From: a virus
IMG/VR virus record: IMGVR_UViG_3300024272_000071
Reading direction: 5' to 3' (one strand)
DNA: 64,000 nt
The position numbers and the translations under genes are program-made. Of the stretch, positions 26,920 through 40,863 are shown piece after piece (positions within the stretch are counted from its first letter, which is position 1; each line of letters starts with the position of its first letter). The notes beneath the pieces are model-generated. The model saw nothing but the letters and a program-made list of their open reading frames with translations, was not told the origin of the DNA and did not search any database.

Positions 26920-27394
26920 CTGTTTACCTGACCTCACTTACTCTTTATGAAAATAAACATGAATAGTAAACAGTTAGGAAACATTACTGAACTTGAAACG
27001 ATGTTGGCATTTCTTAAACTTGGTTATAATGTTCTTACTCCATATGGAGATTGTGAGCGTTATGACTTCGTGGTAGATATTGGCAATAAGTTTATAAGAG
27101 TTCAAAGTAAAACATCTCACTCAACAGATGATGGAGCATCATTCTCATTTAGTGGTAGAAGTTGTAATCGCAAAGATGGGAAAATTGTACACCATCAATA
27201 CACAGCGGATGAAATTGATTACTTCGCAACAACTTTTAATGGAACGACCTATTTGGTTCCAGTAGAAGAGTGCGGAGCGGATAAAAGACTCCGTATTCTT
27301 CCAGCCAAAAACGGTCAAACCCGAGGAATTACTTGGGCGAAAGATTATGAATTGGAGGAAGTAGTAAAGAGTTGGTGAGCTGATGTGTAAGCAA
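26920..27394 (+). mobile_element. intron-like insertion in the tRNA-Asn anticodon loop, almost entirely ORF
   Basis: 475 nt; only ~27 nt 5' and ~16 nt 3' of it lie outside the ORF. Confidence 0.55.
26947..27378 (+). CDS. PD-(D/E)XK nuclease of the Hjc / I-Ssp6803I-like family (paralog 1)
   Basis: E..(15)..YDFVVD..(12)..RVQSKT arrangement gives the E, D and Q/E-x-K catalytic positions; 143 aa; ~40% identical to the ORF at 37027. Confidence 0.55.
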   Translation: MKINMNSKQLGNITELETMLAFLKLGYNVLTPYGDCERYDFVVDIGNKFIRVQSKTSHSTDDGASFSFSGRSCNRKDGKIVHHQYTADEIDYFATTFNGTTYLVPVEECGADKRLRILPAKNGQTRGITWAKDYELEEVVKSW

Positions 27395-27625
27395 CCGCAG
27401 TGTCGTAGGTTCGAGTCCTACACGGGGCGCCAGCACCTCAATGGCCCATGTTGCCTCGGGTCAGAGAGGCGAAGTATTCAAACCGCTAACATGGATTCTG
27501 GCGTGCTAAACTACCACCGGCGCTCTAATTGCAATCCTCCGTACCCAATACGATACTGTACAGAGAGCGATATGTGGCTTAGTGGAAAGCGGTATATAAG
27601 AAAGCAAAGTAAGCACTCCCGCATT

Positions 27626-27700
27626 TGGGGCGTTAGTCAAGCGGCCAAGACGTGGCCCTTTCAAGGCCAAGTCACGGGTTCGACTCCCGTACGCCCTACC
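27626..27700 (+). tRNA. tRNA-Glu (TTC)
   Basis: GGGGCGT/ACGCCCT acceptor; loop CTTTCAA; T-arm ACGGGTTCGACTCCCGT; CCA. Confidence 0.75.
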
Positions 27701-27783
27701 AACTAAGGCAGACACAGCGAACTTACATTTACTTAAACATCTGATTTGGGATCTGATAAGTTTTTGAAATATCTGCCTTGCAA

Positions 27784-27858
27784 CGCTGAGTAGTTCAGTG
27801 GTAGAACACTCGCCTCATAAGCGAGCAGTCGGTGGTTCAAATCCACCCTCAGCGACCA
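27784..27858 (+). tRNA. tRNA-Met/Ile2 (CAT)
   Basis: CGCTGAG/CTCAGCG acceptor; loop CTCATAA; T-arm GGTGGTTCAAATCCACC. Confidence 0.8.
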
Positions 27859-28272
27859 TAGCTGAGTTTTTGGATGGTTCTCGGCATATTAAAATTACTA
27901 ATATAGCACCTACAACATGACTCCGATAATTAAGTTAATTGGTGATTAATACAGTGAGTCATATACTAATTACAGGGTGTGTATATTATATGATTACAAA
28001 AAAGACCATCCATACTGCTTCCCAAGTCGGCGATTAGAATGGACTGGGTGCGACCGATCCGTAGGTCAAGAGAAATCAGCGGACGCGGAAGAGATTGTAT
28101 GACACACTCCTCACTGGGCTGCGAAAACGCTTGAAAGATGTCGTAGTGTCAAGCCATCCAACTGGGCTTGTACAGTTGGGGATGGGCGACAGCCTGTGGT
28201 GGACCGACCACTCCGGAAAACAGGTCAGAGAGTAAGGGCAGTCCGCTCTTTAGAATAGGGACACCCCAATGT

Positions 28273-28347
28273 GGTTTGTTAGTTTAACGGCTAGAATGCT
28301 GCCCTGTCACGGCAGTGGCGCGGGTTCGATTCCCGCACAGACCGCCA
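28273..28347 (+). tRNA. tRNA-Asp (GTC)
   Basis: GGTTTGT/ACAGACC acceptor; loop CTGTCAC; T-arm GCGGGTTCGATTCCCGC. Confidence 0.75.
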
Positions 28348-28472
28348 TTTACTTCACTGCTGTATGCAGAGAGGAGCTCTTCTCCGACTGGGTTGTGACC
28401 GAAGAGAAGTAGTAACTTTATACTCACGGACGTAAGCTGTCTGACCCGTTAAAGCCAGAATCAGCGTCATAT

Positions 28473-28565
<93 letters not shown>

Positions 28566-28567
28566 GT

Positions 28568-28660
28568 GGAGTCTTAAGCCTAATTGGTAAGGCACTCGCT
28601 TGGAAAGCGAGCAGTAATCGGTAACACGGTGTCTGGGTTCAAGTCCCAGAGACTCCGCCA
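28568..28660 (+). tRNA. tRNA-Ser (GGA)
   Basis: GGAGTCT/AGACTCC acceptor; loop TTGGAAA; long variable arm; T-arm CTGGGTTCAAGTCCCAG. Confidence 0.8.
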
Positions 28661-28669
28661 AAATGTTAT

Positions 28670-28725
28670 ATCATTTGATTTTTTCAAAAATAAATGATAT
28701 AATATATATGTAAGATGGTTAAAGG
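28670..28725 (+). promoter_or_regulatory. conserved promoter cassette upstream of tRNA-Leu(TAA)
   Basis: TCATTTGATTTTTTCAAAAATAAATGATATAATATATATGTAAGATGG. Confidence 0.55.
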
Positions 28726-28727
28726 CA

Positions 28728-28790
28728 CGCACAGCAATCATTTCATATTTTCTTTTGTGCAGAAAAAAGTAATGAATGTGCCTTGTACTT
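28728..28790 (+). ncRNA. ACAGCAA-hairpin leader element (copy A)
   Basis: AAAGGCACGCACAGCAATC...GTGCCTT; stem covaries with the other copies while ACAGCAA is conserved. Confidence 0.45.
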
Positions 28791-29096
28791 GCCCAGGTGG
28801 TGGAATTGGCAGACACAGCGGACTTTGACTTAGCGACAACATTTGAGCACTATGAAGGAAACTTCATAAGTGAATGCTGGCTAATTCGGCGAATAGCTAA
28901 GAGAACGCCGAGCTAAATCGAAAGCCTTTGGCTTTCGTAAATGTGTAGAGACTATATACCAGCCTCCTAAGTCGTAAGATATGGAGAAGACATAGTCCGG
29001 ACTACAACGTAGAAATACGGCCATGGTGACATGGAGTAGTGCGAAAATCCGCTGGCCTTGAAAGCCGTACGGGTTCGAGTCCCGTCCTGGGCACCA
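28791..29096 (+). tRNA. tRNA-Leu (TAA) interrupted by a group-I-type intron between positions 34 and 35
   Basis: GCCCAGG-TGGTGGAATTGGCAGACACA-GCGGA-CTT | ~218 nt | AAAA-TCCGC + Leu-type variable arm + ACGGGTTCGAGTCCCGT-CCTGGGC-A-CCA; the joined loop CTTAAAA is the Leu(UAA) loop. Confidence 0.7.
28826..29043 (+). mobile_element. putative group I intron in tRNA-Leu(UAA)
   Basis: ~218 nt; ends in G; contains AGACTATA / TAGTCCGGACTA P7-like elements; inserted at the classic 34/35 site. Confidence 0.55.
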
Positions 29097-29160
29097 CATA
29101 AAAACCCCAAAGGGTTGGGAGGTTCTCATTAAGTTGAGTTTAGACCCTTCCCGCTAATAT

Positions 29161-29237
<77 letters not shown>

Positions 29238-29592
29238 GAGGAGTTCGCGGACGCTCTCCTAACAGAAAAAGCGCCGTGAAGGTGAGTAACGTATGACTCA
29301 TGCCACTACCGCTAAGTGTTTGTAAGCCATGGATAGCAGACGAGGTAAAATGTGGCAAAGCTATGACGGACAAGGCTTTGGCAGGTGAATCAATTAGCTT
29401 GGTGGGAGAGTTAATTAACTCATTAGGACCACGTTAAAGTTAATTGATAACAGACTGGTGGGACGCGAGTGGTCATGGTACTAATCAAGCGAGATGACAT
29501 AGAGCCTCGTCGAGACGAGCGAGGATAGCTGAGTGCGAGATAAGGAAGAAACGCCGGATGTAAGCCGCTTTCTTGATTAGATCGTCTTTCAT

Positions 29593-29669
29593 GGTGCGTT
29601 AGTTCAGTAGGCTAGAATGCCAGCCTGTCACGCTGGAGGTCACGGGTTCAAACCCCGTACGCATCGCCA
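29593..29669 (+). tRNA. tRNA-Asp (GTC), second copy
   Basis: GGTGCGT/ACGCATC acceptor; loop CTGTCAC; T-arm ACGGGTTCAAACCCCGT. Confidence 0.75.
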
Positions 29670-29843
29670 TTAGAGAGACATCGGTTCAAACCCGGTATCC
29701 TCACACAGTGGGGATTAGTTTAAAAGGTAAAAATACTCTAAACCAACCTGGCAAGGTGGCGCTTTCACTGATGTGAAAGGATGAGTCGGTGCGGAGACTC
29801 TCAAAACCCGTACAATTGGTGGGGTTTTATTCCTCACCTATAT

Positions 29844-29919
<76 letters not shown>

Positions 29920-29922
29920 TAT

Positions 29923-30006
29923 GGGTCAGTACCGAATCGGCAAACGGAGCGGACTGTAAATCCGCCGCCACTGGCATAGTTGGATCGACACCAACCTGGC
30001 CCACCA
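29923..30006 (+). tRNA. tRNA-Tyr (GTA), class II, unusual T-loop ATCGACA
   Basis: GGGTCAG/CTGGCCC acceptor; stem GCGGA/TCCGC; loop CTGTAAA; long variable arm; A54 in place of T54. Confidence 0.65.
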
Positions 30007-30146
30007 ACTCGTCTTTATGAGAGTTCTCGCGTCAAGAAACTCATTAGCGACTTAACTGCTACCGACTGTGATTAACAGAAGCTTCGAGGTCAGGGAACGA
30101 GGAAAGTGTTAAGAGTGTAGTAAGCAGGGCCTTGCTTACTATATGC

Positions 30147-30229
30147 GCTCCTGTGGTGGAATTGGCAGACACGCTGGTTTAAGGTACCAGTGGGAGACCA
30201 TGAGGGTTCGAGTCCCTCCGGGAGCACCA
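30147..30229 (+). tRNA. tRNA-Leu with apparent anticodon AAG (A34)
   Basis: Leu-type D-arm TGGTGGAATTGGCAGACAC; stem CTGGT/ACCAG; loop TTAAGGT; variable hairpin TGGGAGACCA; T-arm GAGGGTTCGAGTCCCTC. Confidence 0.6.
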
Positions 30230-30233
30230 ATAT

Positions 30234-30317
30234 GCGGGCGTGGTGGAATGGCAGACACGCTAGACTTAGGATCTAGTGCCGCAAGGCGTAAGGGTTCAAG
30301 TCCCTTCGCCCGCACCA
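30234..30317 (+). tRNA. tRNA-Leu (TAG)
   Basis: GCGGGCG/CGCCCGC acceptor; stem CTAGA/TCTAG; loop CTTAGGA; long variable arm. Confidence 0.8.
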
Positions 30318-30339
30318 TTTTATTCTTGGATGTGATACC

Positions 30340-31044
30340 ATGAAAGTATGGACAACATTACTTGGTACAGATGATTATTTAGAAGCGGTTTTAACTTTAG
30401 AGGAAAGTCGTAAAAGAGTAGCTTCTAAATATCCGCTGGTAGTTATTTGTTTTAATGATTTAGATTATAACACATATGAATCTTTAGATCAGGCAAACAT
30501 TAAATATGAAACTTTCCCAAGAGAGTTGTTTCAAGGAGAGAAACGAAACAAAGATTATTCTGTGACTATAGGCAAATTTTACGCTTATGTTCTAAAAAAC
30601 GTTTCTCGTTTTTGTTTTATTGATGCAGATTCATTTTTTGTAGAAAACATAGATTATATATTAGATATATCAGTACCTGTTTTCTTCGTGTTTGATCCAT
30701 CATTTAGAAATGGCTATACAGAAAATATGAACTGTTTAACAGGATGTATTTTTTCTGACAATACATCACAAGAAAAATTTGATTGTGCATTTACATATAA
30801 AGAACAATGCCGCGAAGATGAACAGGTGCTACCAATCTTGGCAGATAAGAGTAAATCTCATATGAGAATTTGTTATCGTGATTGGACATTGCGTCATCAA
30901 ATGGTGGTATTTCACGAAAGTGCATATTCAACTGCTCATAAATTTTGGAATCGACCTAATTATGACAGACATGCTTTTCTAAATGAAGTAATTTATTTTT
31001 TTAAACATGATTGGTCTTATATTAAGTCGATACCTGAAGAATAA
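30340..31044 (+). CDS. GT8 / glycogenin-like glycosyltransferase (paralog 1)
   Basis: N-terminal W.TLL..DDYLEAVLTL; DxD-type FIDADSFF motif; 234 aa. Confidence 0.55.
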   Translation: MKVWTTLLGTDDYLEAVLTLEESRKRVASKYPLVVICFNDLDYNTYESLDQANIKYETFPRELFQGEKRNKDYSVTIGKFYAYVLKNVSRFCFIDADSFFVENIDYILDISVPVFFVFDPSFRNGYTENMNCLTGCIFSDNTSQEKFDCAFTYKEQCREDEQVLPILADKSKSHMRICYRDWTLRHQMVVFHESAYSTAHKFWNRPNYDRHAFLNEVIYFFKHDWSYIKSIPEE

Positions 31045-31051
31045 ATTTAGG

Positions 31052-31180
31052 CACACACAGCAATTCTTCTTTAAGAAGAGTGTGGGTTCAAATCCCACAG
31101 AATGCGCAAAAGCAGCATTTTTGGCGGAATGGTTTACGCGATTGACTGAAAATCAATTTTCTTTATAATGTGCCTAGTCT
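31052..31180 (+). ncRNA. ACAGCAA element (copy B) with embedded T-arm-like hairpin and an internal promoter
   Basis: AGGCACACACAGCAATTC..GTGGGTTCAAATCCCAC..TTGACT-17-TATAATGTGCCT; 5' AGGCACA pairs with TGTGCCT. Confidence 0.4.
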
Positions 31181-31181
31181 T

Positions 31182-31255
31182 AGGGGTTTACGATAATGGT
31201 AGTCTAGCGGTCTCCAAAACCGTAAGTGGTGGTTCAAATCCATCAACCCCTGCCA
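31182..31255 (+). tRNA. tRNA-Trp (CCA)
   Basis: AGGGGTT/AACCCCT acceptor; stem GCGGT/ACCGT; loop CTCCAAA; T-arm GGTGGTTCAAATCCATC; weak D-stem. Confidence 0.65.
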
Positions 31256-31258
31256 TAT

Positions 31259-31333
31259 TGGCGATTGGTGTAATTGGCAACACGCCGGACTCTGACTCCG
31301 TTGTTCTAGGTTCAAGTCCTAGATCGCCAGCCA
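31259..31333 (+). tRNA. tRNA-Gln (CTG)
   Basis: U1-A72 acceptor TGGCGAT/ATCGCCA; G73; loop CTCTGAC; T-arm CTAGGTTCAAGTCCTAG. Confidence 0.7.
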
Positions 31334-31344
31334 AGAGGTATATT

Positions 31345-31641
31345 ATGCAGGACGACAAGATTTTAGAATGGATTCACCGCAGATTCCCCCATGATAGTAA
31401 TTGGTTAAATGGTAATTGCTATCAATTTGCTCTCCTGCTCAATTCTACTTTTGAGGGAGAGATTGTATATGACCCAATTGATGGACATTTCCTTTTTCTT
31501 GCGAGCAACGGTCAGTTTTATGACTGGTCTGGTGTGCGGATATACAGTGGGACTTATCAAAAGGCATTTGTCAAGTGGGCTGACTACCGACAGAAAGATC
31601 AACTCCACTATGATCGGGTGATGCGAGACTGTGCGTATTAA
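31345..31641 (+). CDS. hypothetical protein (98 aa)
   Basis: ATG after AAGAGGTA; the listed longer ORF overlaps the two upstream tRNAs and is rejected. Confidence 0.45.
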   Translation: MQDDKILEWIHRRFPHDSNWLNGNCYQFALLLNSTFEGEIVYDPIDGHFLFLASNGQFYDWSGVRIYSGTYQKAFVKWADYRQKDQLHYDRVMRDCAY

Positions 31642-31732
31642 ACCTCGATTATGTCAGCATGGTTGCCGACGATGCTTTTGGCTGCGGAAAATCACTCGTC
31701 CCGGTCGGAAATATTGGGCATGTACATATTGA

Positions 31733-31807
31733 CCCCTCGTAGTCTAACGGAGAAAACAAGGGCCTTCTAAGCCTTACTTCTGGGTTCGATTCCTAGCGGG
31801 GGGACCA
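31733..31807 (+). tRNA. tRNA-Arg (TCT)
   Basis: C1-G72 acceptor CCCCTCG/CGGGGGG; stem AGGGC/GCCTT; loop CTTCTAA; T-arm CTGGGTTCGATTCCTAG. Confidence 0.65.
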
Positions 31808-31808
31808 T

Positions 31809-31884
31809 GGTTCCTTAGCCAAGCTGGTAAGGCGGCGGATTGCAAATCCGTTATTCACTGGTTCGAGTCCAGTAGGAACCTCCA
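31809..31884 (+). tRNA. tRNA-Cys (GCA)
   Basis: GGTTCCT/AGGAACC acceptor; loop TTGCAAA; T-arm ACTGGTTCGAGTCCAGT. Confidence 0.8.
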
Positions 31885-31914
31885 TATTTATTTTGAGAAA
31901 AAGGTGGGATATAC

Positions 31915-32658
31915 ATGAGTCAAAATTCTCTTGATCCATCTCGTTTTGCTTATGTTACATTATTAAGCTCTGAAGATTATTTAGATGCAGTTTTAGTATT
32001 GCATGAAAGCCTGAAAGATGTGCAGGCTAAATTTCCTTTAATATGTGGAGTTACTAAAAATTTAAATTCCACACAACTTATCACAAAATTGATGAATTCT
32101 GGTATTCATATTGAATGGATTGAACCTTTGGAATATAGTGCTGGGACACAAGCAAAATATCCAGGAAAGGTAGTATTAAATACTGCATCCAAGGTTAATT
32201 TGTTTAATTTAGTAAATTATGATAAACTTTGTTACATTGACGCTGATACGATTGTCGTCAACAATATTGATGATGTATTCGATCGGCTGGATGGTTCAAT
32301 GGTAAAGTTCCAGAATGATGATTATGGTTTTACTGGACTATTTGTATTTAGCCCTCGTAATCATCGAGCAGATTTTTATTTGCATCTATTGAAGAATTTT
32401 GATTGTTTTGACGGTGATCTAATTGGTTCTTTATGGTTCCACACTCGTACAAGTGCAGATCACTGGATTAGTGATGACTATTGCAAACATTATAATAACG
32501 ATGTAAAACGCAAAGGTAATCATAACGTCCGTGTTTGGCATTTCTGCAATGAGGGTTGTAAACCTTGGAAACCTGCAGATCGAGAAAACATGAAACCCAC
32601 TTATGTGCTTCAAAAGTACGATGATCTTTTGGCTCGCGTTCATGGTATGTTTGATTGA
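31915..32658 (+). CDS. GT8 / glycogenin-like glycosyltransferase (paralog 2)
   Basis: YVTLLSSEDYLDAVLVL; DxD motif CYIDADTIV; 247 aa; RBS AAGGTGGGA. Confidence 0.55.
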   Translation: MSQNSLDPSRFAYVTLLSSEDYLDAVLVLHESLKDVQAKFPLICGVTKNLNSTQLITKLMNSGIHIEWIEPLEYSAGTQAKYPGKVVLNTASKVNLFNLVNYDKLCYIDADTIVVNNIDDVFDRLDGSMVKFQNDDYGFTGLFVFSPRNHRADFYLHLLKNFDCFDGDLIGSLWFHTRTSADHWISDDYCKHYNNDVKRKGNHNVRVWHFCNEGCKPWKPADRENMKPTYVLQKYDDLLARVHGMFD

Positions 32659-32700
32659 TTTTTTTCAAAATTTTTGATATAATATATATGTAAGGTCGAA
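32645..32700 (+). promoter_or_regulatory. conserved promoter cassette (copy) upstream of the suppressor tRNA
   Basis: TGATTTTTTTCAAAATTTTTGATATAATATATATGTAAGGTCGAAAAAG. Confidence 0.6.
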
Positions 32701-32722
32701 AAAGCCAACATCCCCTATTTAT

Positions 32723-32813
32723 AGGGGAGTGGTGTAACGGCAGCACGGCAGACTCTAAATCTGTTAGCCCTCTGAAGGCGTAAGTCAGGGTTCGAATCCC
32801 TGCTCCCCCGCCA
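32723..32813 (+). tRNA. amber-suppressor tRNA (anticodon CTA), class II, Ser-like (G73)
   Basis: AGGGGAG/CTCCCCC acceptor (A1:C72); D-arm GTG-TAACGGCAG-CAC; stem GCAGA/TCTGT; loop CTCTAAA gives anticodon CUA; 21 nt variable arm; T-arm CAGGGTTCGAATCCCTG; G73; CCA. Confidence 0.7.
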
Positions 32814-32847
32814 ATTATTTACATGGGGATGAATGACAAAAATAAAA

Positions 32848-32920
32848 AAGTCACATACAGCAATTTTCAAGTATAGTAAGAAGACATTCCATTCTCCTGA
32901 AATATTGATGTGACTTGTTT
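32848..32920 (+). ncRNA. ACAGCAA-hairpin leader element (copy C)
   Basis: AAAAGTCACATACAGCAATTTTC...ATGTGACTT; 7 bp covarying stem. Confidence 0.45.
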
Positions 32921-32922
32921 AT

Positions 32923-32998
32923 GCGGTAGTAGCTCAATTGGTAGAGTGCTAGCCTTCCAAGCTGGATGTTGCGGGTTCGAAACCCGTCTACCGCTCCA
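32923..32998 (+). tRNA. tRNA-Gly (TCC)
   Basis: GCGGTAG/CTACCGC acceptor; loop CTTCCAA; T-arm GCGGGTTCGAAACCCGT. Confidence 0.8.
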
Positions 32999-33088
32999 TT
33001 GGAATCTATCTGATTTGGGTGGATTTCATATTCGTGGAAATCATGCGGGGTCGACCCTACTGGGCCTCATCGTAACAGCCGATCTTAT

Positions 33089-33162
33089 GCAGGTATAGTA
33101 TAGTGGTAATACTCCTGCTTGCCAAGCAGGCGTCACGGGTTCGAATCCCGTTACTTGCTCCA
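33089..33162 (+). tRNA. tRNA-Gly (GCC)
   Basis: GCAGGTA/TACTTGC acceptor; stem CCTGC/GCAGG; loop TTGCCAA; T-arm ACGGGTTCGAATCCCGT. Confidence 0.8.
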
Positions 33163-33165
33163 CTT

Positions 33166-33242
33166 GCCGCGGTAGCTCAGTTGGTAGTAGCAGTGGACTG
33201 AAAATCCACGTGTCGGCGGTTCAAGTCCGCCCTGCGGCACCA
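33166..33242 (+). tRNA. tRNA-Phe (GAA)
   Basis: GCCGCGG/CTGCGGC acceptor; stem GTGGA/TCCAC; loop CTGAAAA; T-arm GGCGGTTCAAGTCCGCC. Confidence 0.8.
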
Positions 33243-33244
33243 AA

Positions 33245-33300
33245 AGTTATATCATTTGAAAATTTCAAAAAAAAATGATATAATATATATGTAAGGTTGA
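33245..33300 (+). promoter_or_regulatory. conserved promoter-leader cassette (copy)
   Basis: TCATTTGAAAATTTCAAAAAAAAATGATATAATATATATGTAAGGTTGAGAGAGG. Confidence 0.6.
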
Positions 33301-33316
33301 GAGAGGAGATGGCAGT

Positions 33317-33631
33317 ATGAATCGTTTCTACATCTTCGTCGATGACGAGCGTAAGTTCAATCCTGATGTTCTCAAAGATGACGTAGTTCTGATCACCTGT
33401 CGAACCTTCTCTAGTGCCATTGAGGTTCTCAAATGGTGTCGAGACAATGGGTGGGAAGCCTGGCTGGATCTCGACCATGATTTGGGAGAAGCTAAGACCG
33501 GTTATGATATATGTAAATTCATCGTGGAAAATCAAATTCCAATTCTCGGCTACACTCTGCATACTATGAATCCGGTCGGTAGGCAGAATATGAAACAGCT
33601 TCTTTCTCATTATGGATACACCGCTTTCTAA
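33317..33631 (+). CDS. hypothetical small alpha/beta protein (receiver/Rossmann-like)
   Basis: FYIFVDDERKF..VVLITCRT..AWLDLDHDLGE pattern; 104 aa. Confidence 0.4.
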   Translation: MNRFYIFVDDERKFNPDVLKDDVVLITCRTFSSAIEVLKWCRDNGWEAWLDLDHDLGEAKTGYDICKFIVENQIPILGYTLHTMNPVGRQNMKQLLSHYGYTAF

Positions 33632-33682
33632 ATAGAGCCTGCGGTCGGGGCCAACCTTGTAAGGAAGTACCGACCCTTATAT

Positions 33683-33758
33683 TGCGGGATGGAGCAGTTG
33701 GTAGCTCGCTAGCCCCATAAGCTAGAGGTCGAAGGTTCAAGTCCTTCTCCCGCACCCA
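33683..33758 (+). tRNA. tRNA-Met (CAT) with C33 and U1-A72 (initiator-like oddities)
   Basis: TGCGGGA/TCCCGCA acceptor; stem CTAGC/GCTAG; loop CCCATAA; C73; CCA. Confidence 0.65.
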
Positions 33759-33761
33759 TTT

Positions 33762-33837
33762 CTCCCATTCGTCCAACTGGACAGGACACGAGGCTACGGA
33801 CCTCGGAATGAGGGTTCAAATCCTTCGTGGGAGGCCA
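33762..33837 (+). tRNA. tRNA-Arg (ACG)
   Basis: CTCCCAT/GTGGGAG acceptor; D-stem GTCC/GGAC; stem CGAGG/CCTCG; loop CTACGGA. Confidence 0.75.
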
Positions 33838-33841
33838 TTAT

Positions 33842-33917
33842 GGGCTCATAGCTCAGTTGGTAGAGCACCTGCCTTGCAAGCAGGATGTCAGGGGTTCGAT
33901 TCCCCTTGGGTCCACCA
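33842..33917 (+). tRNA. tRNA-Ala (TGC)
   Basis: GGGCTCA/TGGGTCC acceptor with G3-U70; loop CTTGCAA; T-arm AGGGGTTCGATTCCCCT. Confidence 0.8.
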
Positions 33918-33927
33918 ATTTCAAAGG

Positions 33928-34002
33928 CGAGTACAGCAACTTTTCTTATTAAGCGCTATCCTTTTAAGATATGAAATGCTAAACAACTCGCCTTGATTTA
34001 TT
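33928..34002 (+). ncRNA. ACAGCAA-hairpin leader element (copy D)
   Basis: AAAGGCGAGTACAGCAACTTTTC...ACTCGCCTT. Confidence 0.45.
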
Positions 34003-34003
34003 T

Positions 34004-34079
34004 GCGGGATTAGCTCAGTTGGTAGAGCACCTGACTCTTAATCAGGGTGTCTAGGGTTCGAGTCCCTAATCCCGCACCA
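34004..34079 (+). tRNA. tRNA-Lys (CTT)
   Basis: GCGGGAT/ATCCCGC acceptor; loop CTCTTAA; T-arm TAGGGTTCGAGTCCCTA. Confidence 0.8.
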
Positions 34080-34081
34080 TA

Positions 34082-34145
34082 ACGGCATTGCCACTTAAGT
34101 GCCGCGGTCCGAGGCTAAAGCCTGAATATTAGTCCGCCGTTTTTC
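34082..34145 (+). terminator. hairpin with T-run after the tRNA block
   Basis: AACGGCATTGCC..GCCGCGGTCCGAGGCTAAAGCCTG..GTCCGCCGTTTTT. Confidence 0.4.
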
Positions 34146-34225
34146 TGGTAAAGGAATATTATCGCATGAGGATACGGCCGAGTGCGTGTCGGAAGAAAGT
34201 GGACGCCAGAAAAGGAGCTACGAAA

Positions 34226-34399
34226 ATGCTCATTCATATTAAAGAGATTGATTCTGCTGTTGAGAATAATCGCTGTCCAGAGCCTGCATTTTGTACGATT
34301 GCAACAACTGTTTACGATTCTCATACAAGAGAGCGTAAATGTTTGAAATGTTGGTTAGAGTTTTGTAAAACTCATAATATTGAAATCGACTATGATTGA
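34226..34399 (+). CDS. small Cys-rich (zinc-finger-like) protein (57 aa)
   Basis: RBS AAAGGAG; CPEPAFC..CLKCWLEFC. Confidence 0.4.
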   Translation: MLIHIKEIDSAVENNRCPEPAFCTIATTVYDSHTRERKCLKCWLEFCKTHNIEIDYD

Positions 34400-34402
34400 T
34401 AT

Positions 34403-34478
34403 GCGCCATTAGCTCAGTTGGCAGAGCACTAGACTTTTAATCTAGGCGTCTTGGGTTCGATTCCCAAATGGCGCACCA
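34403..34478 (+). tRNA. tRNA-Lys (TTT)
   Basis: GCGCCAT/ATGGCGC acceptor; loop CTTTTAA; T-arm TTGGGTTCGATTCCCAA. Confidence 0.8.
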
Positions 34479-34495
34479 CTTTCTTGGAGGTTATT

Positions 34496-35206
34496 ATGCA
34501 AGAGCGATATAAAAAGAATTGCGGCTCTTTTATGACAGAAGAGCATCAAAATGTTCTTCTTTCTAAAACTTTCGCGGTAATTGGAGTGGGCGGCAATGGA
34601 AGTTATATCGCAGAATTTCTTGCTCGATAGGGATGCAAAAAATTGATTGTAATTGACTTTGATTCTTTTGAAGAATCTAATCTTAATCGACAGGCATTTT
34701 GTTTTGAAGATAATCTTCAGCTCAATAAAGCTGAGCAAGCTGTTCAATACCTCCGTAAAATCAATTCATCTATTGAATATGAATGGTATACTTTCCCTTA
34801 TGGAACACAAAATATTCCTTCCATGCAAGAATGCGATATGATTTTTACCGCCGCAGATGGAAATCAATATACTAAAAAATATCGAGAAAATTTGCGTGAA
34901 TTAGTAAAGATCGGTATTCCAGTCGTTGAGCAATGCATTTGGAATCGTGGTGTTGAAGTATGCATTATTTCTGAATCATCTCTTTTAGAAATGTATGATG
35001 AAAATACTGCACGATGGGAATATTCTGCACATGATCCTTGCATTATTTCTCAACCCGCATGGTTATGTTCATTGGCTGCAAGTTTAGCAACAGCAGAAGC
35101 ATGGAGATATTTCTCTAAACAAGATCCTTTGATCGGTCAAAGATTAGTTTATGATATAGATGAAAATCAATTACACCGTTTGGTTAATGGGAAGTTCGTT
35201 TATTAA
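34496..35206 (+). CDS. ThiF/MoeB/E1-like adenylyltransferase with an in-frame TAG at 34628-34630 (read-through by suppression, or a pseudogene)
   Basis: The region before the TAG gives the GxGxxG Rossmann motif FAVIGVGGNGSYIAEFLAR; the region after gives GCKKLIVIDFDSFEESNLNRQ; together this matches ThiF LARAGVGKLTLVDFDVVELSNLNRQ, with the TAG aligned to Ala/Ser. Confidence 0.6.
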
Positions 35207-36107: not shown

Positions 36108-36225
36108 AAGACGCTTTCAGCAAATGATTCTTTACAGAACAAAATGTAATTGGTTCGATTCCAATATTGCCCGCAATAGGACGATTAGCTCATTTGGTAG
36201 AGCATTTGTATAACATAAGGGCGTC
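36108..36225 (+). ncRNA. long hairpin (AAAGACGC...GCGTCTT) carrying a CAGCAAAT motif and tRNA-fragment-like arms
   Basis: Contains a T-arm-like AATTGGTTCGATTCCAAT and a D-arm-like GCTCATTTGGTAGAGC, but no pairing acceptor stem. Confidence 0.35.
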
Positions 36226-36260
36226 TTGTTATTTTTCAATTTCAAAAGGAGTGAAAGTCA

Positions 36261-36687: not shown

Positions 36688-37000
36688 ATCCCAGAGTGCT
36701 AATATACGGGATTTATATAATTGAATTATTTAGATTAAAAGTTTTTAGTGGCGCTCTTCAGAAAGTTCTTTCAATGCACGAAGATTGAATAAGTAGGTTG
36801 AGTGTTGCGCAGGTATATTGAGGCAGATGTGAATGATGGACTCTTGTGGAGCAAGGGTTGGGTGGGCCCAGTACGTTAAGGGCATCAGGTCTGCGGCGTG
36901 TCGTCTTCGGCCGCATAAGTAGTGAAGCAAGCCGAAGTTTGAAGCACTGTTTCAATATACATTGTGCTGGCGTAGCTCAATTGGCAGAGCAGCTGATTTG

Positions 37001-37476
37001 TCAATCAAACTCAGTGAAAAAATGATATGGAATTAACTTCAAAACAAAAAGGTAATCTCACTGAATTACAATGTTTAACTGCATTTTCTCAATGTGGATA
37101 TTCAGTAAGTATTCCTTATGGTGATAATTCTAAATATGATTTTATCGCAGATGTTGATGGACGACTATTAAAAATTCAGGTAAAAACCGCATCATTAAAA
37201 AATGAAGGCGCAATTAAATTTTCTTGTAGAACTACGCATGTTAATTGTGCTGGAGTTAAAAATGAACGGTATTCAAGCAATGATGTTGATTATTTTGCTA
37301 CTTACTGGGAAGGTCAATGTTATCTTGTACCTGTAAATGAATGTTCAGTAGAAAAAACTTTACGATTTGAATATCCTAAAAATGGTCAGAAAAAAGGTAT
37401 TACTCTTGCTTCTGAATATAAATTGGAAATTCAACTACAAAAAGTAAAGGAGGAAGTAGCTGAGCATTGATAGATA
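37001..37476 (+). mobile_element. intron-like insertion in the tRNA-Thr anticodon loop, almost entirely ORF
   Basis: 476 nt; ORF 37027-37470; only 26 nt 5' and 6 nt 3' lie outside the ORF. Confidence 0.55.
37027..37470 (+). CDS. PD-(D/E)XK nuclease of the Hjc / I-Ssp6803I-like family (paralog 2)
   Basis: GNLTELQCLTAF..GYSV..YDFIADV..(7)..KIQVKTA; 147 aa; paralog of the 26947 ORF. Confidence 0.55.
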   Translation: MELTSKQKGNLTELQCLTAFSQCGYSVSIPYGDNSKYDFIADVDGRLLKIQVKTASLKNEGAIKFSCRTTHVNCAGVKNERYSSNDVDYFATYWEGQCYLVPVNECSVEKTLRFEYPKNGQKKGITLASEYKLEIQLQKVKEEVAEH

Positions 37477-37537
37477 AATCAGCAGGTTGGGGGTTCAAGT
37501 CCCTTCGCCAGCTCCAGTTGGCTGAGCGTTCCGTCTA

Positions 37538-39190: not shown

Positions 39191-39672
39191 ATCCCCTTCA
39201 TTTGATTGTTTAGCCATTTCAACTTATAAAGAAATGGCCCTATATCCAAGAACTGAGGTAAATGACTCAAATCTTGGTCCTTTACGCAATCGGGGCGGTT
39301 TATTTTCAGCAATCTATTTAATAGTAATAAAGATGATATTTTACAAATGAAATTGATTGTAAATAAAGCACCGGCAATTCGCCTTGCGGAGTCGCCCCTC
39401 GCAAGAAAGAACCTCGCGCAAGGCGAGAGCCGGAAGAGTCACGCAGCAAAGCCTTTATTGGTATTATGATTTTATTCAAGAAATAAAATATTTTACTAAA
39501 ATATAGGAATTGCTTATCCGCAACTGGATGAAGTTTTAAATGTAGACTCTTGCATTTGCGACATTTTTAACAGGTTACGGAATAGCAATTCTCCCTTTTC
39601 TTTCTCTGTTCTTTCTTCCTTTCCTTTCTGTTGTGCGTTCATAGGGGCATCCTACACAGAGGGTGCCCTACG

Positions 39673-39748
39673 TGCGGGGTTAGCTCAGCTGGGAGAGCAT
39701 CTGCCTTACAAGCAGAGGGTCGGCGGTTCGAGCCCGTCACTCCGCACC
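39673..39748 (+). tRNA. tRNA-Val (TAC)
   Basis: GCGGGGT/ACTCCGC acceptor; loop CTTACAA; T-arm GGCGGTTCGAGCCCGTC. Confidence 0.8.
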
Positions 39749-39805
39749 AGCCTCGGGTGCATGGTTCTCCATGTGCCCAATTTTTTCATTTTATGGAGGT
39801 TTATA

Positions 39806-40863
39806 TGGGACTGATTTTTACTAGTGAACAAGTTTCTAAGGGTCATCCTGATAAAATTTGTGACCAAGTTTCTGATGCAATTTTGACCGAATGTCTATCT
39901 CAAGACCCCAATACTCGTGCTGGTATTGAGTGTCTCATTAAAAATAAACATCTTTTTATCGCTGGTGAAGTAACTACCAATGCACGCATTGATATTGACC
40001 AGTTTGCAAGAGAAGTGGTTAATCCACTTATGGAAGATGGTTGGATGATTCAAGTTCATAATCATCTTGCTCGACAGTCTGGCGATATTGCTCTTGGCGT
40101 AGATAAAGGCGGCGCCGGTGATCAGGGTATGATGTTTGGTTATGCTTGCCGTGATACCGAAGAGATGATGCCTCTTCCTTGGGCAATGGCTACTGAAGCC
40201 CTCCATATGCTTGATAATGTGCGTGAAATTATGGGTGAAACCAGTTATCTTTTAACTGACGCCAAGAGTCAGGTTACATATGACCGCACCAATAACATTG
40301 TTGATACTTTCTTGATTTCTACGCAGCACACAGAAGATGCCAATATGGAAGATGTCCAAAAGATGTGTAAAGCAATTATGTATGATGTTTGCGATAAGTA
40401 TAATGTAAAGTTCCCCATTCGCACTCTTGTTAATCCGACTGGCCGTTTTGTAATGGGTGGACCTTATGCGGATGCTGGTTTGACTGGTCGTAAAATTATC
40501 GCTGATACATATGGTGGATATTGTCCACATGGCGGTGGCGCTTTTAGCGGCAAAGATCCTACTAAGGTTGATCGTTCCGCGGCATATGCGGCTCGCAAGA
40601 TTGCAAAAGACATTCTGCGTGAACGCACCAATGCACATGAGTGTGTAGTTCAGCTTGCATATGCGATCGGAATTGATGAACCTGTTAGTGTATTTGTTTC
40701 TCTTGATGGAAAGCCCTCCGAAGAATTGGCTATTCAAGTGATGCGCAAATATGATCTTACTCCTAATGGTATTATCAAAGATTTTGATTTGAAACATTTT
40801 GATTACAACAAAGTTTCTGCTTATGGTCATTTTGGTAAAGCAGGACTCCCCTGGGAGGAATAA
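39806..40863 (+). CDS. metK: S-adenosylmethionine synthetase
   Basis: FTSEQVSKGHPDKICDQVSDAIL, GAGDQGMMFGYA, DAKSQVT, GGGAFSGKDPTKVDRSAAYAAR signatures. Confidence 0.85.

What the first reader, a model, noticed from the sequence alone, without database searches (positions are those of the whole stretch)
28791..29096. Group-I-type intron at the classic 34/35 site of tRNA-Leu(UAA)
Exons give GCGGA-CTT | AAAA-TCCGC, that is the loop CUUAAAA with anticodon UAA. The ~218 nt insert ends in G and contains GACTA-type P7-like segments. This is the ancient cyanobacterial/plastid tRNA-Leu intron position, here in a phage-like element, and it coexists with a different, ORF-filled insert type in two other tRNAs.
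Basis: partly seen in the sequence, partly recalled or inferred. Interest (0 to 1): 0.55.

Follow-up and report, generated by a model that had tools for sequence, protein, structure and literature searches.

The report
Self-splicing intron in phage tRNA-Leu gene
A large gut phage carries a leucine tRNA gene interrupted, at the site long known from cyanobacteria and chloroplasts, by a compact catalytic (group I) intron; the RNA type is ordinary, but finding it inside phage tRNA genes, and in many other large phages, appears not to have been described.

Summary
Window 28791-29096 is a tRNA-Leu(UAA) gene (exons 28791-28825 and 29044-29096, CCA encoded). A 218-nt insert (28826-29043) splits it between U34 and A35.

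The insert is a real group I intron of the small IC3 type:
- Rfam Intron_gpI covers the full model, E 4.8e-11, at 47.4 bits, just under the 50-bit cut-off.
- A complete P1-P9 fold can be drawn, with a U·G at the 5' splice site and a terminal G.
- In 16 related sequences 92.8% of proposed pairs form (32-40% in shifted controls), and 34 of 58 pairs show compensatory changes.
- It aligns collinearly with the self-splicing Nostoc tRNA-Leu intron (52% identity).

It has no endonuclease gene. Relatives carry HNH or LAGLIDADG genes in loop L6.

The same intron family interrupts tRNA genes, mostly tRNA-Leu(UAA), on about 90 IMG/VR viral contigs and in more than 120 bacterial genomes, mainly Bacteroidota. 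The window's nearest relatives are viral. Distantly related phages have an uninterrupted gene.

Verdict: a new member of a known kind. The setting is notable: a 2014 review says all known phage introns lie in protein genes, and I found no later report of group I introns in phage tRNAs. Splicing is inferred, not shown.

The parts
28675..28713 (+). Promoter-like site upstream of the pre-tRNA: TTGATT, 17-nt spacer, TG-TATAAT. It overlaps one copy of the 18-mer GATATAATATATATGTAA (28696-28713).
   Evidence: Consensus scan, 10 of 12 matches with an extended -10. The 18-mer occurs 28 times in the window against 0.08 expected. Function is inferred.
28791..28825 (+). 5' exon of tRNA-Leu(UAA): acceptor arm, D arm, 5' anticodon stem GCGGA, then C32 U33 U34.
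   Evidence: ARAGORN intron mode and the in-silico spliced product.
28826..29043 (+). Group I (IC3-type) intron, 218 nt, with no ORF.
   Evidence: Rfam RF00028, 47.4 bits, E 4.8e-11, model positions 1-253. Covariation. Collinear alignment with IC3-labelled introns.
28823..28828 (+). P1 5' strand: exon CUU plus intron UGA. U28825 is the 5' splice-site U.
   Evidence: C-G, U-A and U·G are invariant in 16 of 16 sequences. The Rfam alignment puts the consensus splice-site U here.
28842..28847 (+). Internal guide sequence UUUGAG (P1 3' strand). G28845 pairs with U28825. U28842-28844 could pair with the 3' exon AAA (P10; inferred).
   Evidence: P10 is read from the sequence only.
28851..28868 (+). 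P2 hairpin UAUGAAG-GAAA-CUUCAUA. The L2 GAAA tetraloop is conserved in the family.
   Evidence: All 7 pairs show changes on both sides. Recovered in the minimum-energy fold.
28876..28880 (+). P3 5' strand GCUGG.
   Evidence: All 5 pairs are compensatory and 100% of cells are paired.
28885..28912 (+). P4 (UUCGGCG / CGCCGAG) enclosing a reduced P5 segment AAUAGCUAAGAGAA (28892-28905).
   Evidence: Of the 7 P4 pairs, 5 are compensatory and 2 change on one side only; 93.8% of cells are paired. P5 pairing is unresolved. The same short P5 occurs in relatives L123, L172, L192 and L204.
28913..28943 (+). P6 with the P6a hairpin CGAAAGCC-UUU-GGCUUUCG (28919-28937). This is where homing-endonuclease ORFs sit in longer relatives.
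   Evidence: Minimum-energy fold. BLAST breakpoints of ORF-bearing relatives fall at query positions 128 to 148. The ORFs are HNH or LAGLIDADG.
28950..28955 (+). P7 5' strand GACUAU, preceded by the J6/7 segment GUGUAGA. Forms a pseudoknot with P3.
   Evidence: Matches the Rfam consensus AGACUA. Nearly invariant, 92.7% of cells paired.
28959..28963 (+). P3 3' strand CCAGC.
28964..28986 (+). P8 with the 11-nt GAAA-tetraloop receptor motif (CCUAAG...UAUGG) and a GUAA loop.
   Evidence: Read from the sequence. The motif is conserved in most relatives. 5 of 7 pairs are compensatory. The L2-P8 contact is inferred from knowledge of IC3 introns.
28987..28997 (+). J8/7 (AAGAC) and the P7 3' strand AUAGUC.
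   Evidence: Matches the Rfam consensus GAAGAUAUAGUC. Invariant in the family.
29001..29040 (+). P9 three-way junction: P9 ACUAC/GUAGU; P9a CGUA-GAAA-UACG (29008-29019); P9b CCAUG-GUGA-CAUGG (29021-29034).
   Evidence: P9a has 3 of 4 and P9b 4 of 5 compensatory pairs; P9 is invariant. Recovered in the minimum-energy fold. Nostoc and Bacteroidota introns share the architecture.
29043..29043 (+). Terminal G (omega-G) at the 3' splice site.
   Evidence: An invariant column in the 16 sequences. The insert ends in G.
29044..29096 (+). 3' exon: A35 A36 A37 A38, 3' anticodon stem UCCGC, long variable arm, T arm, acceptor strand, A73, CCA.

Best explanation
This is a tRNA-Leu(UAA) gene of a phage of about 170 kb, interrupted between U34 and A35 by a 218-nt group I intron of the IC3 type that lacks an ORF.

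Inferred mechanism:
1. The gene is transcribed from its own promoter-like site about 90 nt upstream.
2. In the precursor the two exon halves of the anticodon stem pair and hold the splice sites together.
3. The intron folds into P1-P9. The exon CUU pairs with the guide GAG, giving a U·G at the splice site. P3 and P7 form the core pseudoknot. The L2 GAAA loop docks on the 11-nt receptor in P8.
4. A free guanosine bound in P7 attacks after U28825.
5. The terminal G29043 then takes the same site, and the freed 3'-OH of U34 attacks before A29044.
6. This joins the exons into an 88-nt tRNA that reads UUA and UUG codons, and releases the intron.

The intron has no homing-endonuclease gene. It is probably a stripped-down descendant of mobile relatives that carry HNH or LAGLIDADG genes in L6. 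It is now inherited with the phage or moved only in trans.

Shown here: the gene structure, the fold and its covariation, family membership, distribution, and uninterrupted genes in distantly related phages. Inferred: catalysis, promoter use, the tertiary contacts and the evolutionary history.
For: - Gene structure: exact exon and intron boundaries and a normal cloverleaf after in-silico splicing.
- Rfam: Intron_gpI matches the full model at E 4.8e-11. Collinear relatives score 54-62 bits, above the cut-off.
- Covariation: on a structure-blind MAFFT alignment of 16 sequences, 92.8% of cells pair against 32-40% when partners are slid. 34 of 58 pairs have compensatory changes. No shuffle out of 500 reaches the observed value on any of the five measures. 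P2, P3, P4, P8, P9a and P9b covary; the splice-site U·G and the omega-G are invariant.
- Energy: the minimum-energy fold recovers P2, P3, P4, P6a and the P9 domain, z = -4.9.
- Sequence conservation: the window agrees with relatives at 99 of 103 strongly conserved columns.
- Reference comparison: it aligns collinearly with introns that their authors labelled IC3, including the experimentally self-splicing Nostoc PCC 7120 tRNA-Leu intron. Identity is 52% over 193 columns, and the P9 three-way junction is shared.
- Family mobility: about 90 IMG/VR contigs and more than 120 species genomes hold the family. Intron lengths are bimodal, and the long forms carry HNH or LAGLIDADG ORFs in L6. 47 viral contigs hold an uninterrupted tRNA-Leu(UAA) with the same anticodon arm, among them distant relatives of this phage.
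- Need for splicing: it is the only tRNA-Leu(UAA) gene in the 39-gene array.
Against: - No experimental or transcript evidence of splicing.
- The Rfam score is 2.6 bits below the curated cut-off, so the default annotation run reports nothing here.
- P5 is reduced to a 14-nt A-rich segment for which I could not establish a pairing. In canonical IC3 introns P5 receives the L9 tetraloop.
- P1 has a U×U mismatch next to the splice site and an unusually large 13-nt loop.
- The window differs from all 15 aligned relatives at two otherwise invariant adenines (G28999 in J7/9 and G29041, two bases before the omega-G). The effect is unknown.
- UUA and UUG make up only about 22% of Leu codons in 27 long ORFs, so selection on this tRNA may be modest.
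Confidence: 0.85

Rival explanations
1. A decayed intron that no longer splices. On this reading the interrupted gene is a tRNA pseudogene and the phage relies on host tRNA-Leu(UAA).
For: The intron has lost its endonuclease gene. P5 is reduced. Two family-invariant adenines are changed. The Rfam score is below the cut-off. UUA and UUG are minor Leu codons in this window.
Against: Every core helix is intact. 99 of 103 conserved columns are retained. The U·G and the omega-G are present. One deviation, U28965 in P8, is compensated (pair U-A where relatives have A-U). The same reduced P5 is conserved in several independent relatives, which argues for a working variant rather than decay. Both exons are intact and give a perfect cloverleaf.
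Confidence: 0.07
2. A group I intron that needs help or is conditional. With a minimal P5 it would fold or splice efficiently only with a protein cofactor (host or phage) or at particular Mg2+ or GTP levels. Supply of tRNA-Leu(UAA) would then be timed during infection.
For: The P4-P6 domain is reduced. Many group I introns with weak peripheral domains depend on proteins in vivo (general knowledge). The gene has its own copy of the repeated promoter-like motif.
Against: The L2-P8 tetraloop-receptor pair and a conserved GNRA loop in L9b are present. Small IC3 introns such as the Nostoc one self-splice without proteins (PMC13011429). No candidate maturase lies in or beside the intron: the antisense ORFs have no Pfam match.
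Confidence: 0.08

Closest known systems
[quoted passage not shown]
   Same: Same insertion site (U34/A35). Same exon context (GGACUU|AAAAUCC). Same subgroup label. Collinear P1-P9, including the P2 GAAA loop and the P9 three-way junction with a GNRA-capped P9b.
   Different: Only 48-52% identical over the 193 shared core columns. Nostoc has a fully paired P5 and P7 GACUC/GAGUC, where the window has GACUA/UAGUC. It is chromosomal or organellar, not viral. The window's intron is not nested in that lineage.
tRNA-Leu(UAA) 34/35 IC3 introns of Bacteroidota (table in PMC13011429; genome scan here)
   Same: Same site and subgroup. Same conserved 3' block (AUAGUCCAGAC..ACAA ... G|AAAAUCC). Some carry an HNH endonuclease gene, as the viral relatives do.
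   Different: Single chromosomal tRNA genes rather than phage tRNA arrays. 55-57% identity over the core and about 60-63% over the 3' domain. The 19 nearest relatives of the window are all viral.
Azoarcus tRNA-Ile IC3 intron (structural model of the subgroup)
   Same: From memory, a lead and not a test: a compact intron of about 200 nt with an L2 GAAA to P8 11-nt receptor contact, an L9 to P5 contact, and the core motifs AAUUCGGCGAA, GCCGAGC and GUGUAGAGACUA, which the window shares almost verbatim.
   Different: A different tRNA and a different position in the anticodon loop. It has a complete P5 receptor.
Classical phage group I introns (T4 td, nrdB and nrdD; SPO1 and Twort introns)
   Same: Carried by phages. 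Spread by intron-encoded homing endonucleases. Present or absent among related phages.
   Different: All lie in protein-coding genes. The 2014 review states that every phage intron then known was in a protein gene, despite the many phage tRNA genes (PMC3984707). Per general knowledge they belong to other structural subgroups.
'Enigmatic' tRNA introns of Lak megaphages (Devoto et al. 2019, PMC6784885)
   Same: Introns within tRNA genes of phage tRNA arrays, in phages with stop-codon recoding.
   Different: The Lak introns are 80-114 nt, were predicted one base 3' of the anticodon, and gave 'no hit in rfam'. The window's Leu intron is a clear group I ribozyme. The three short inserts at 20997-21658 resemble the Lak type more closely.

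Membership tests
Group I intron (Rfam RF00028) | The 5' splice site follows a U that forms a U·G wobble with an internal guide sequence in P1. | tested here: met
   U28825·G28845, flanked by C-G and U-A. These three pairs are identical in 16 of 16 homologues.
Group I intron (Rfam RF00028) | The intron ends in a guanosine (omega-G). | tested here: met
   G29043, an invariant column in the alignment.
Group I intron (Rfam RF00028) | A conserved core with P3-P7 pseudoknot, P4-P6 domain and P8, supported by comparative evidence. | tested here: met
   92.8% of cells paired against 32-40% in slid controls. 34 of 58 pairs are compensatory. No shuffle out of 500 matches. P7 and P9 are invariant, so covariation says nothing about them. 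The P5 pairing is unresolved.
Group I intron (Rfam RF00028) | The covariance-model score reaches the curated gathering threshold (50 bits). | tested here: inconclusive
   47.4 bits, 2.6 below the cut-off, so nothing is reported at the gathering threshold. The match is full length with E 4.8e-11. Collinear relatives score 54.3, 61.5 and 62.0 bits. This is an operational cut-off, not a biological property.
Group I intron (Rfam RF00028) | Guanosine-dependent self-splicing. | not testable with these tools
   Needs in-vitro transcription and splicing, or transcript data.
IC3 subgroup (bacterial tRNA anticodon-loop introns) | Collinear homology to introns classified as IC3. | tested here: met
   Aligns end to end with six introns labelled IC3 in PMC13011429 (Nostoc and two other cyanobacterial tRNA-Leu, two Bacteroidota tRNA-Leu, one cyanobacterial tRNA-Arg), at 48-57% identity over 177-193 shared core columns.
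IC3 subgroup (bacterial tRNA anticodon-loop introns) | Peripheral contacts: L2 GNRA loop to a P8 receptor, and L9 GNRA loop to P5. | tested here: inconclusive
   The L2 GAAA loop and the exact 11-nt receptor CCUAAG/UAUGG in P8 are present and conserved. L9b GNRA is conserved, but P5 is reduced to 14 nt with no recognisable receptor.
IC3 subgroup (bacterial tRNA anticodon-loop introns) | Assignment by subgroup-specific covariance models. | not tested
   Those models are not in the tool set.
Cyanobacterial and plastid tRNA-Leu(UAA) intron lineage | Insertion between U34 and A35 of tRNA-Leu(UAA). | tested here: met
   The site is described as the classic one in PMC13011429.
Cyanobacterial and plastid tRNA-Leu(UAA) intron lineage | The closest relatives are cyanobacterial or plastid introns. 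| tested here: not met
   Cyanobacterial introns are 48-52% identical, Bacteroidota 55-57% and viral 59-77%. 28 of the 30 nearest 3' domains are viral. Only one cyanobacterium appears among the 120 genome hits to the family-specific pattern.
Mobile group I intron (spread by a homing endonuclease) | An endonuclease gene inside the intron. | tested here: not met
   218 nt with no ORF of 50 aa or more on the coding strand. The overlapping antisense ORF has no Pfam match. Relatives do carry HNH or LAGLIDADG ORFs in L6.
Mobile group I intron (spread by a homing endonuclease) | Alleles with and without the intron among related genomes. | tested here: met
   Viral contigs L337, L339, L340 and L369 share 65-72% nucleotide identity with window genes and carry an uninterrupted tRNA-Leu(UAA). 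The relationship is distant, so this shows gain or loss, not recent homing.

The most novel reading that the evidence does not exclude
tRNA arrays of large phages may be a major, overlooked reservoir and vehicle of IC3 tRNA introns. On this reading, endonuclease-bearing copies home between co-infecting phages and into host tRNA-Leu genes. That would explain the patchy spread of the 'ancient' tRNA-Leu(UAA) intron across Bacteroidota, Clostridia and perhaps cyanobacteria. In this phage the group I intron would be only one of three co-existing ways of interrupting tRNA genes, at least one of which (the ORF-only PD-(D/E)XK inserts) would need a splicing route not yet described in bacteria or phages.
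Probability: 0.2. Interest if true: 0.7.

Novelty: new member of a known kind. Interest (0 to 1): 0.42.

Why it matters
1. Annotation. Default tRNA finders and Rfam at its curated threshold both miss this gene, so the phage looks as if it lacks tRNA-Leu(UAA). The same will hold for many large phages, and their tRNA repertoires are under-counted.

2. A textbook generalisation. The statement that phage introns sit only in protein genes (PMC3984707) does not hold for uncultivated large phages. About 90 IMG/VR contigs matched one narrow family-specific pattern.

3. An old debate. Phage-borne copies with HNH or LAGLIDADG genes offer a concrete, testable vector for lateral spread of the tRNA-Leu(UAA) intron. 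Whether that intron is ancient or laterally transferred has been argued since the 1990s.

4. A practical point. A natural 218-nt IC3 ribozyme with a minimal P5 is a compact candidate scaffold for permuted-intron RNA circularisation, and a useful case for asking what P5 is needed for.

Tried and rejected
- Rfam at the gathering threshold on the whole window found tRNAs only and no intron. The intron appears only at the E-value threshold.
- blastn (word size 11) of the 306-nt gene against 50,697 GenBank phage records (INPHARED) found no match. The family seems absent from deposited phage genomes at that sensitivity.
- P5: I tried to pair 28892-28905 by eye and against relatives and found no convincing helix. 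It is left unresolved.
- P9.0 and P10: only a tentative 3-bp P10 (exon AAA with U28842-28844), and it is not conserved in relatives. No clear P9.0.
- I asked whether the two ORF-filled tRNA inserts hide a group I core. Permissive Rfam scans of each found nothing. The same search also misses known ORF-bearing members such as the 714-nt L041 intron, so that negative is weak. The stronger argument is space: only about 25-35 nt and 6-14 nt of each insert are non-coding.
- Antisense ORFs over the intron (28881-29129 and 28580-28816, minus strand) have no Pfam match and are treated as spurious.
- I considered a bulge-helix-bulge or protein-spliced intron for the Leu insert and rejected it, given the complete ribozyme.
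- I did not build my own covariance model. The alignment exceeded 400 columns, and a model of about 230 positions would probably exceed the calibration limit.
- Literature: seven full-text searches and seven papers read. None describes a group I intron in a phage tRNA gene. The library is open-access only, so this is absence of evidence.

Full report
**Observation**

Window 28791-29096 reads GCCCAGGTGGTGGAATTGGCAGACACAGCGGACTT, then 218 nt, then AAAATCCGCTGGCCTTGAAAGCCGTACGGGTTCGAGTCCCGTCCTGGGCACCA. A script located the exon ends at 28825 and 29044, so the insert is 28826-29043. Joining the exons gives an 88-nt class II tRNA. ARAGORN calls that product tRNA-Leu(taa), with anticodon loop CUUAAAA. 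In intron mode ARAGORN also calls the unspliced gene tRNA-Leu(taa) i(36,218). In default mode neither ARAGORN nor Rfam at its curated threshold reports anything here. The insert ends in G, and GACUAU (28950-28955) is complementary to AUAGUC (28992-28997).

**What the insert is**

Against the 501-nt region, Rfam Intron_gpI (RF00028) matches 28816-29020 over the whole model (positions 1-253). The score is 47.4 bits and E is 4.8e-11. In a 22-kb search E is 2.1e-9. The curated cut-off is 50 bits. The Rfam alignment puts the consensus splice-site U on U28825 and the consensus AGACUA and GAAGAUAUAGUC core segments on the window's P7 strands.

Guided by that alignment and by homologues, I drew a complete fold (window coordinates):
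- P1: exon CUU plus intron UGA (28823-28828) with UUUGAG (28842-28847). U28825·G28845 is the splice-site wobble.
- P2: 28851-28868, with a GAAA loop.
- P3: 28876-28880 with 28959-28963.
- P4: 28885-28891 with 28906-28912.
- P5: a reduced 14-nt segment, 28892-28905.
- P6 and P6a: 28913-28943.
- P7: 28950-28955 with 28992-28997.
- P8: 28964-28986. It contains the exact 11-nt tetraloop-receptor motif CCUAAG...UAUGG and a GUAA loop.
- P9: a three-way junction, 29001-29040, with GAAA- and GUGA-capped arms.
- Omega-G: 29043.

RNAfold on the 236-nt construct recovers P2, P3, P4, P6a, the whole P9 domain and the exon anticodon stem. The energy is -75 kcal/mol and z = -4.9 against 200 shuffles. It cannot predict the P7 pseudoknot.

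**Comparative test**

Two pattern scans of IMG/VR gave homologues. The generic core pattern hit at least 120 viral contigs. A family-specific 3' pattern (ATAGTC, 25-55 nt, GTAGYRNG|AAAATCC) hit 90 viral contigs, most of them 100-470 kb long. On the 204 loci fetched, ARAGORN in intron mode found 62 tRNA-Leu(taa) genes split at this site by more than 150 nt. It also found split Phe, other Leu, Ser and suppressor tRNAs.

I aligned 16 ORF-less members with MAFFT, giving it no structure. I projected the window's structure onto the columns and counted pairs:
- 92.8% of 912 cells form standard pairs, against 32-40% when every 3' partner is slid by 1 to 3 columns.
- 34 of 58 pairs have changes on both sides.
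- No shuffle out of 500 reaches the observed value on any of the five measures.
- P2 (7 of 7 pairs), P3 (5 of 5), P4 (5 of 7), P8 (5 of 7), P9a (3 of 4) and P9b (4 of 5) covary.
- P7 and P9 are invariant and so uninformative.
- The splice-site C-G, U-A and U·G pairs and the omega-G are identical in all 16.

The window agrees with its relatives at 99 of 103 columns conserved in at least 13 of 15 of them. The exceptions are a P1-loop base, a compensated P8 pair, and two family-invariant adenines that are G here (28999 and 29041). Relatives score 45-62 bits in Rfam, three of them above the cut-off. The family straddles the threshold, and the window's 47.4 bits is typical of it.

**Subgroup and relation to the classic intron**

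The supplementary tables of a 2026 survey of bacterial tRNA introns (PMC13011429) give sequences with subgroup labels. They include the Nostoc PCC 7120 tRNA-Leu(UAA) 34/35 intron, which served there as the self-splicing positive control.

The window's intron aligns collinearly with these IC3-labelled introns. Over the 193 shared core columns its identity is 52% to Nostoc, 48-49% to two other cyanobacteria, 55-57% to two Bacteroidota tRNA-Leu introns and 59-77% to viral relatives. All share the P2 GAAA loop and the P9 three-way junction with a GNRA-capped arm.

So it has the same site, the same subgroup and the same architecture as the cyanobacterial and plastid intron. It belongs to a different sub-lineage.

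**Distribution and mobility**

They are mainly Bacteroidota (Bacteroidales, Prevotellaceae, Chitinophagaceae), with some Clostridia, Verrucomicrobiota and others. Most loci held a single tRNA gene, so these copies are chromosomal.

Over the 97-nt catalytic 3' domain, the window's 19 nearest relatives are all viral, and 28 of the top 30 are viral. The comparison set held 77 genomic and 55 viral distinct sequences. The nearest genomic hits are short contigs from rumen Clostridia MAGs.

Intron lengths are bimodal, 195-413 nt and 606-1087 nt. The long forms carry an ORF where P6a sits in the window, and that ORF is an HNH or, once, a LAGLIDADG endonuclease.

Forty-seven viral contigs carry an uninterrupted tRNA-Leu(UAA) with the identical anticodon arm. 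Among them, L337, L339, L340 and L369 share 65-72% nucleotide identity with several window genes, so distant relatives of this phage lack the intron. The window's copy has no ORF, and the antisense ORFs have no Pfam match.

**Context**

The window holds 39 tRNA genes on one strand between 20.9 and 39.8 kb, and this is the only tRNA-Leu(UAA) among them. It also holds phage-type RNA ligase and topoisomerase II hits.

An 18-mer, GATATAATATATATGTAA, is present 28 times against 0.08 expected. One copy overlaps a TTGATT-17-TATAAT site 90 nt upstream of the tRNA-Leu gene.

Window 26340-35044 is 100% identical to part of an ENA contig of 167,964 bp. The topoisomerase protein occurs on 22 or more contigs of up to 172 kb in ENA and JGI samples. 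The locus has therefore been assembled more than once. The source is a phage of at least 170 kb.

**Mechanism**

The steps below follow the established chemistry of group I introns and are inferred here:
1. The anticodon-stem halves hold the exons together.
2. P1 presents U28825·G28845.
3. An exogenous guanosine bound in P7 attacks the 5' splice site.
4. G29043 replaces it.
5. The U34 3'-OH attacks the 3' splice site.
6. The exons join into a tRNA that reads UUA and UUG, which are 8.5% and 13.9% of Leu codons in 27 long ORFs.

The gene structure, fold, covariation and family membership are shown. Catalysis, promoter use and the tertiary contacts are inferred.

**Literature and novelty**

- Devoto et al. 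2019 reported 'enigmatic' introns of 80-114 nt in Lak megaphage tRNAs. They had no Rfam hit, and the authors noted that phage tRNA introns had not been reported before (PMC6784885).
- A 2026 jumbo-phage survey mentions intronic sequences in tRNAs without classifying them (PMC13037316).
- The 2026 bacterial survey covers cellular genomes only.
- I found no paper that describes a group I intron in a phage tRNA gene, and blastn found no match in 50,697 GenBank phage records. The paper library is open-access only, so this is not proof of absence.

The RNA is a textbook kind at a textbook site. What is new is the host, a phage tRNA array, and the evidence that this is common in uncultivated large phages. 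I rate it a new member of a known kind, of moderate interest.

**Seen in passing**

- Two other tRNA genes carry inserts of about 470 nt that are filled by PD-(D/E)XK (PF11645) endonuclease ORFs and have no room for a ribozyme.
- Homologous ORFs lie inside split tRNAs in 11 of 16 tblastn hits in other viral loci.
- Three further tRNA-like genes have inserts of 26-47 nt.
- There is an amber-suppressor tRNA, and TAG is never the stop of the 38 long plus-strand ORFs.

These features look more unusual than the group I intron and deserve separate study.

Noticed in passing
window 26889-27432: A split tRNA gene with an insert of about 468 nt, almost entirely filled by an ORF (26947-27378, 143 aa) that matches PF11645, the PD-(D/E)XK endonuclease family (E 4e-30). 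It reads as Asp(GUC) if split at 35/36 (the exon then ends in U and the insert in G), or as Asn(GUU) if split at 36/37. Asn is otherwise missing from the array. A permissive Rfam scan found no group I signal, and there is no room for a ribozyme. The splicing route is unknown.
   Followed up: partly
window 36966-37516: A second split tRNA with an insert of about 475 nt filled by a PF11645 ORF (37027-37470, E 2e-31). The anticodon is ambiguous (AUA, UUA or UGU) depending on the junction. A 72%-identical copy of the whole unit is present in viral loci L340 and L369. PD-(D/E)XK ORFs lie inside ARAGORN-predicted split tRNAs in 11 of 16 tblastn hits among the fetched loci, so this is a recurrent class of ORF-only tRNA insert.
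   Followed up: partly
window 20997-21125, 21129-21247, 21541-21658: Three tRNA-like genes (Rfam tRNA scores 41-47 bits) with short inserts of 26-47 nt in or next to the anticodon loop. The first has a tyrosine-type body, and CGGTCT is repeated at both junctions, so it could yield anticodon GUA or the amber-suppressor CUA depending on the excision point. They resemble the 'enigmatic' Lak megaphage tRNA introns.
   Followed up: partly
window 32723-32813, and the whole window: A tRNA with anticodon CUA (amber suppressor, long variable arm). None of the 38 plus-strand ORFs of at least 150 codons ends in TAG (TAA 22, TGA 16), which is consistent with a phage that reassigns TAG.
   Followed up: partly
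window, 28 sites (for example 12059, 16087, 20009, 20953, 28696, 32676, 60763): The 18-mer GATATAATATATATGTAA occurs 28 times with up to 3 mismatches (17 exact copies) against 0.08 expected. All but one copy are on the plus strand, typically just upstream of genes or tRNA clusters. It is probably a phage-specific promoter.
   Followed up: partly
window 50133-51575, 41939-43453, 36117-36235: An ATP-dependent RNA ligase (PF09414 plus the PHA02142 OB domain; phrog_968). A 504-aa DUF7788/DUF2828 protein that PHROGs calls RNA-binding. A weak Y-RNA-like (YrlA) match of 30.6 bits, against a gathering score of 69, inside the tRNA array. Together they may form an RNA-repair or RNA-processing module relevant to the non-ribozyme tRNA inserts.
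   Followed up: no
window 28999 and 29041: The window has G at two positions that are A in all 15 aligned relatives: one in J7/9, and one two bases before the omega-G. This may be a linked change near the 3' splice site.
   Followed up: no
L227 (GTDB 'Acholeplasmatales' MAG contig CAAGJD010000133.1) and L166 (IMG/VR): Both come from contigs of 123,552 bp and give the same BLAST alignment to the window. L227 carries 10 tRNA genes. This is a phage contig binned into a bacterial MAG, so some 'genomic' hits for the intron family may in fact be viral.
   Followed up: no
L041 1708-1777; L127 6451-6796: In relatives, a skipping-rope RNA (60.4 bits) lies directly downstream of the intron-bearing tRNA-Leu, and a tmRNA gene (81.6 bits) lies directly downstream of another.
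   Followed up: no
window 21271-21537, 23039-24385, 39631-40863: Genes interspersed within or beside the tRNA array include a weak ParE-toxin-like ORF, a CitMHS-family transporter and a complete S-adenosylmethionine synthetase.
   Followed up: no
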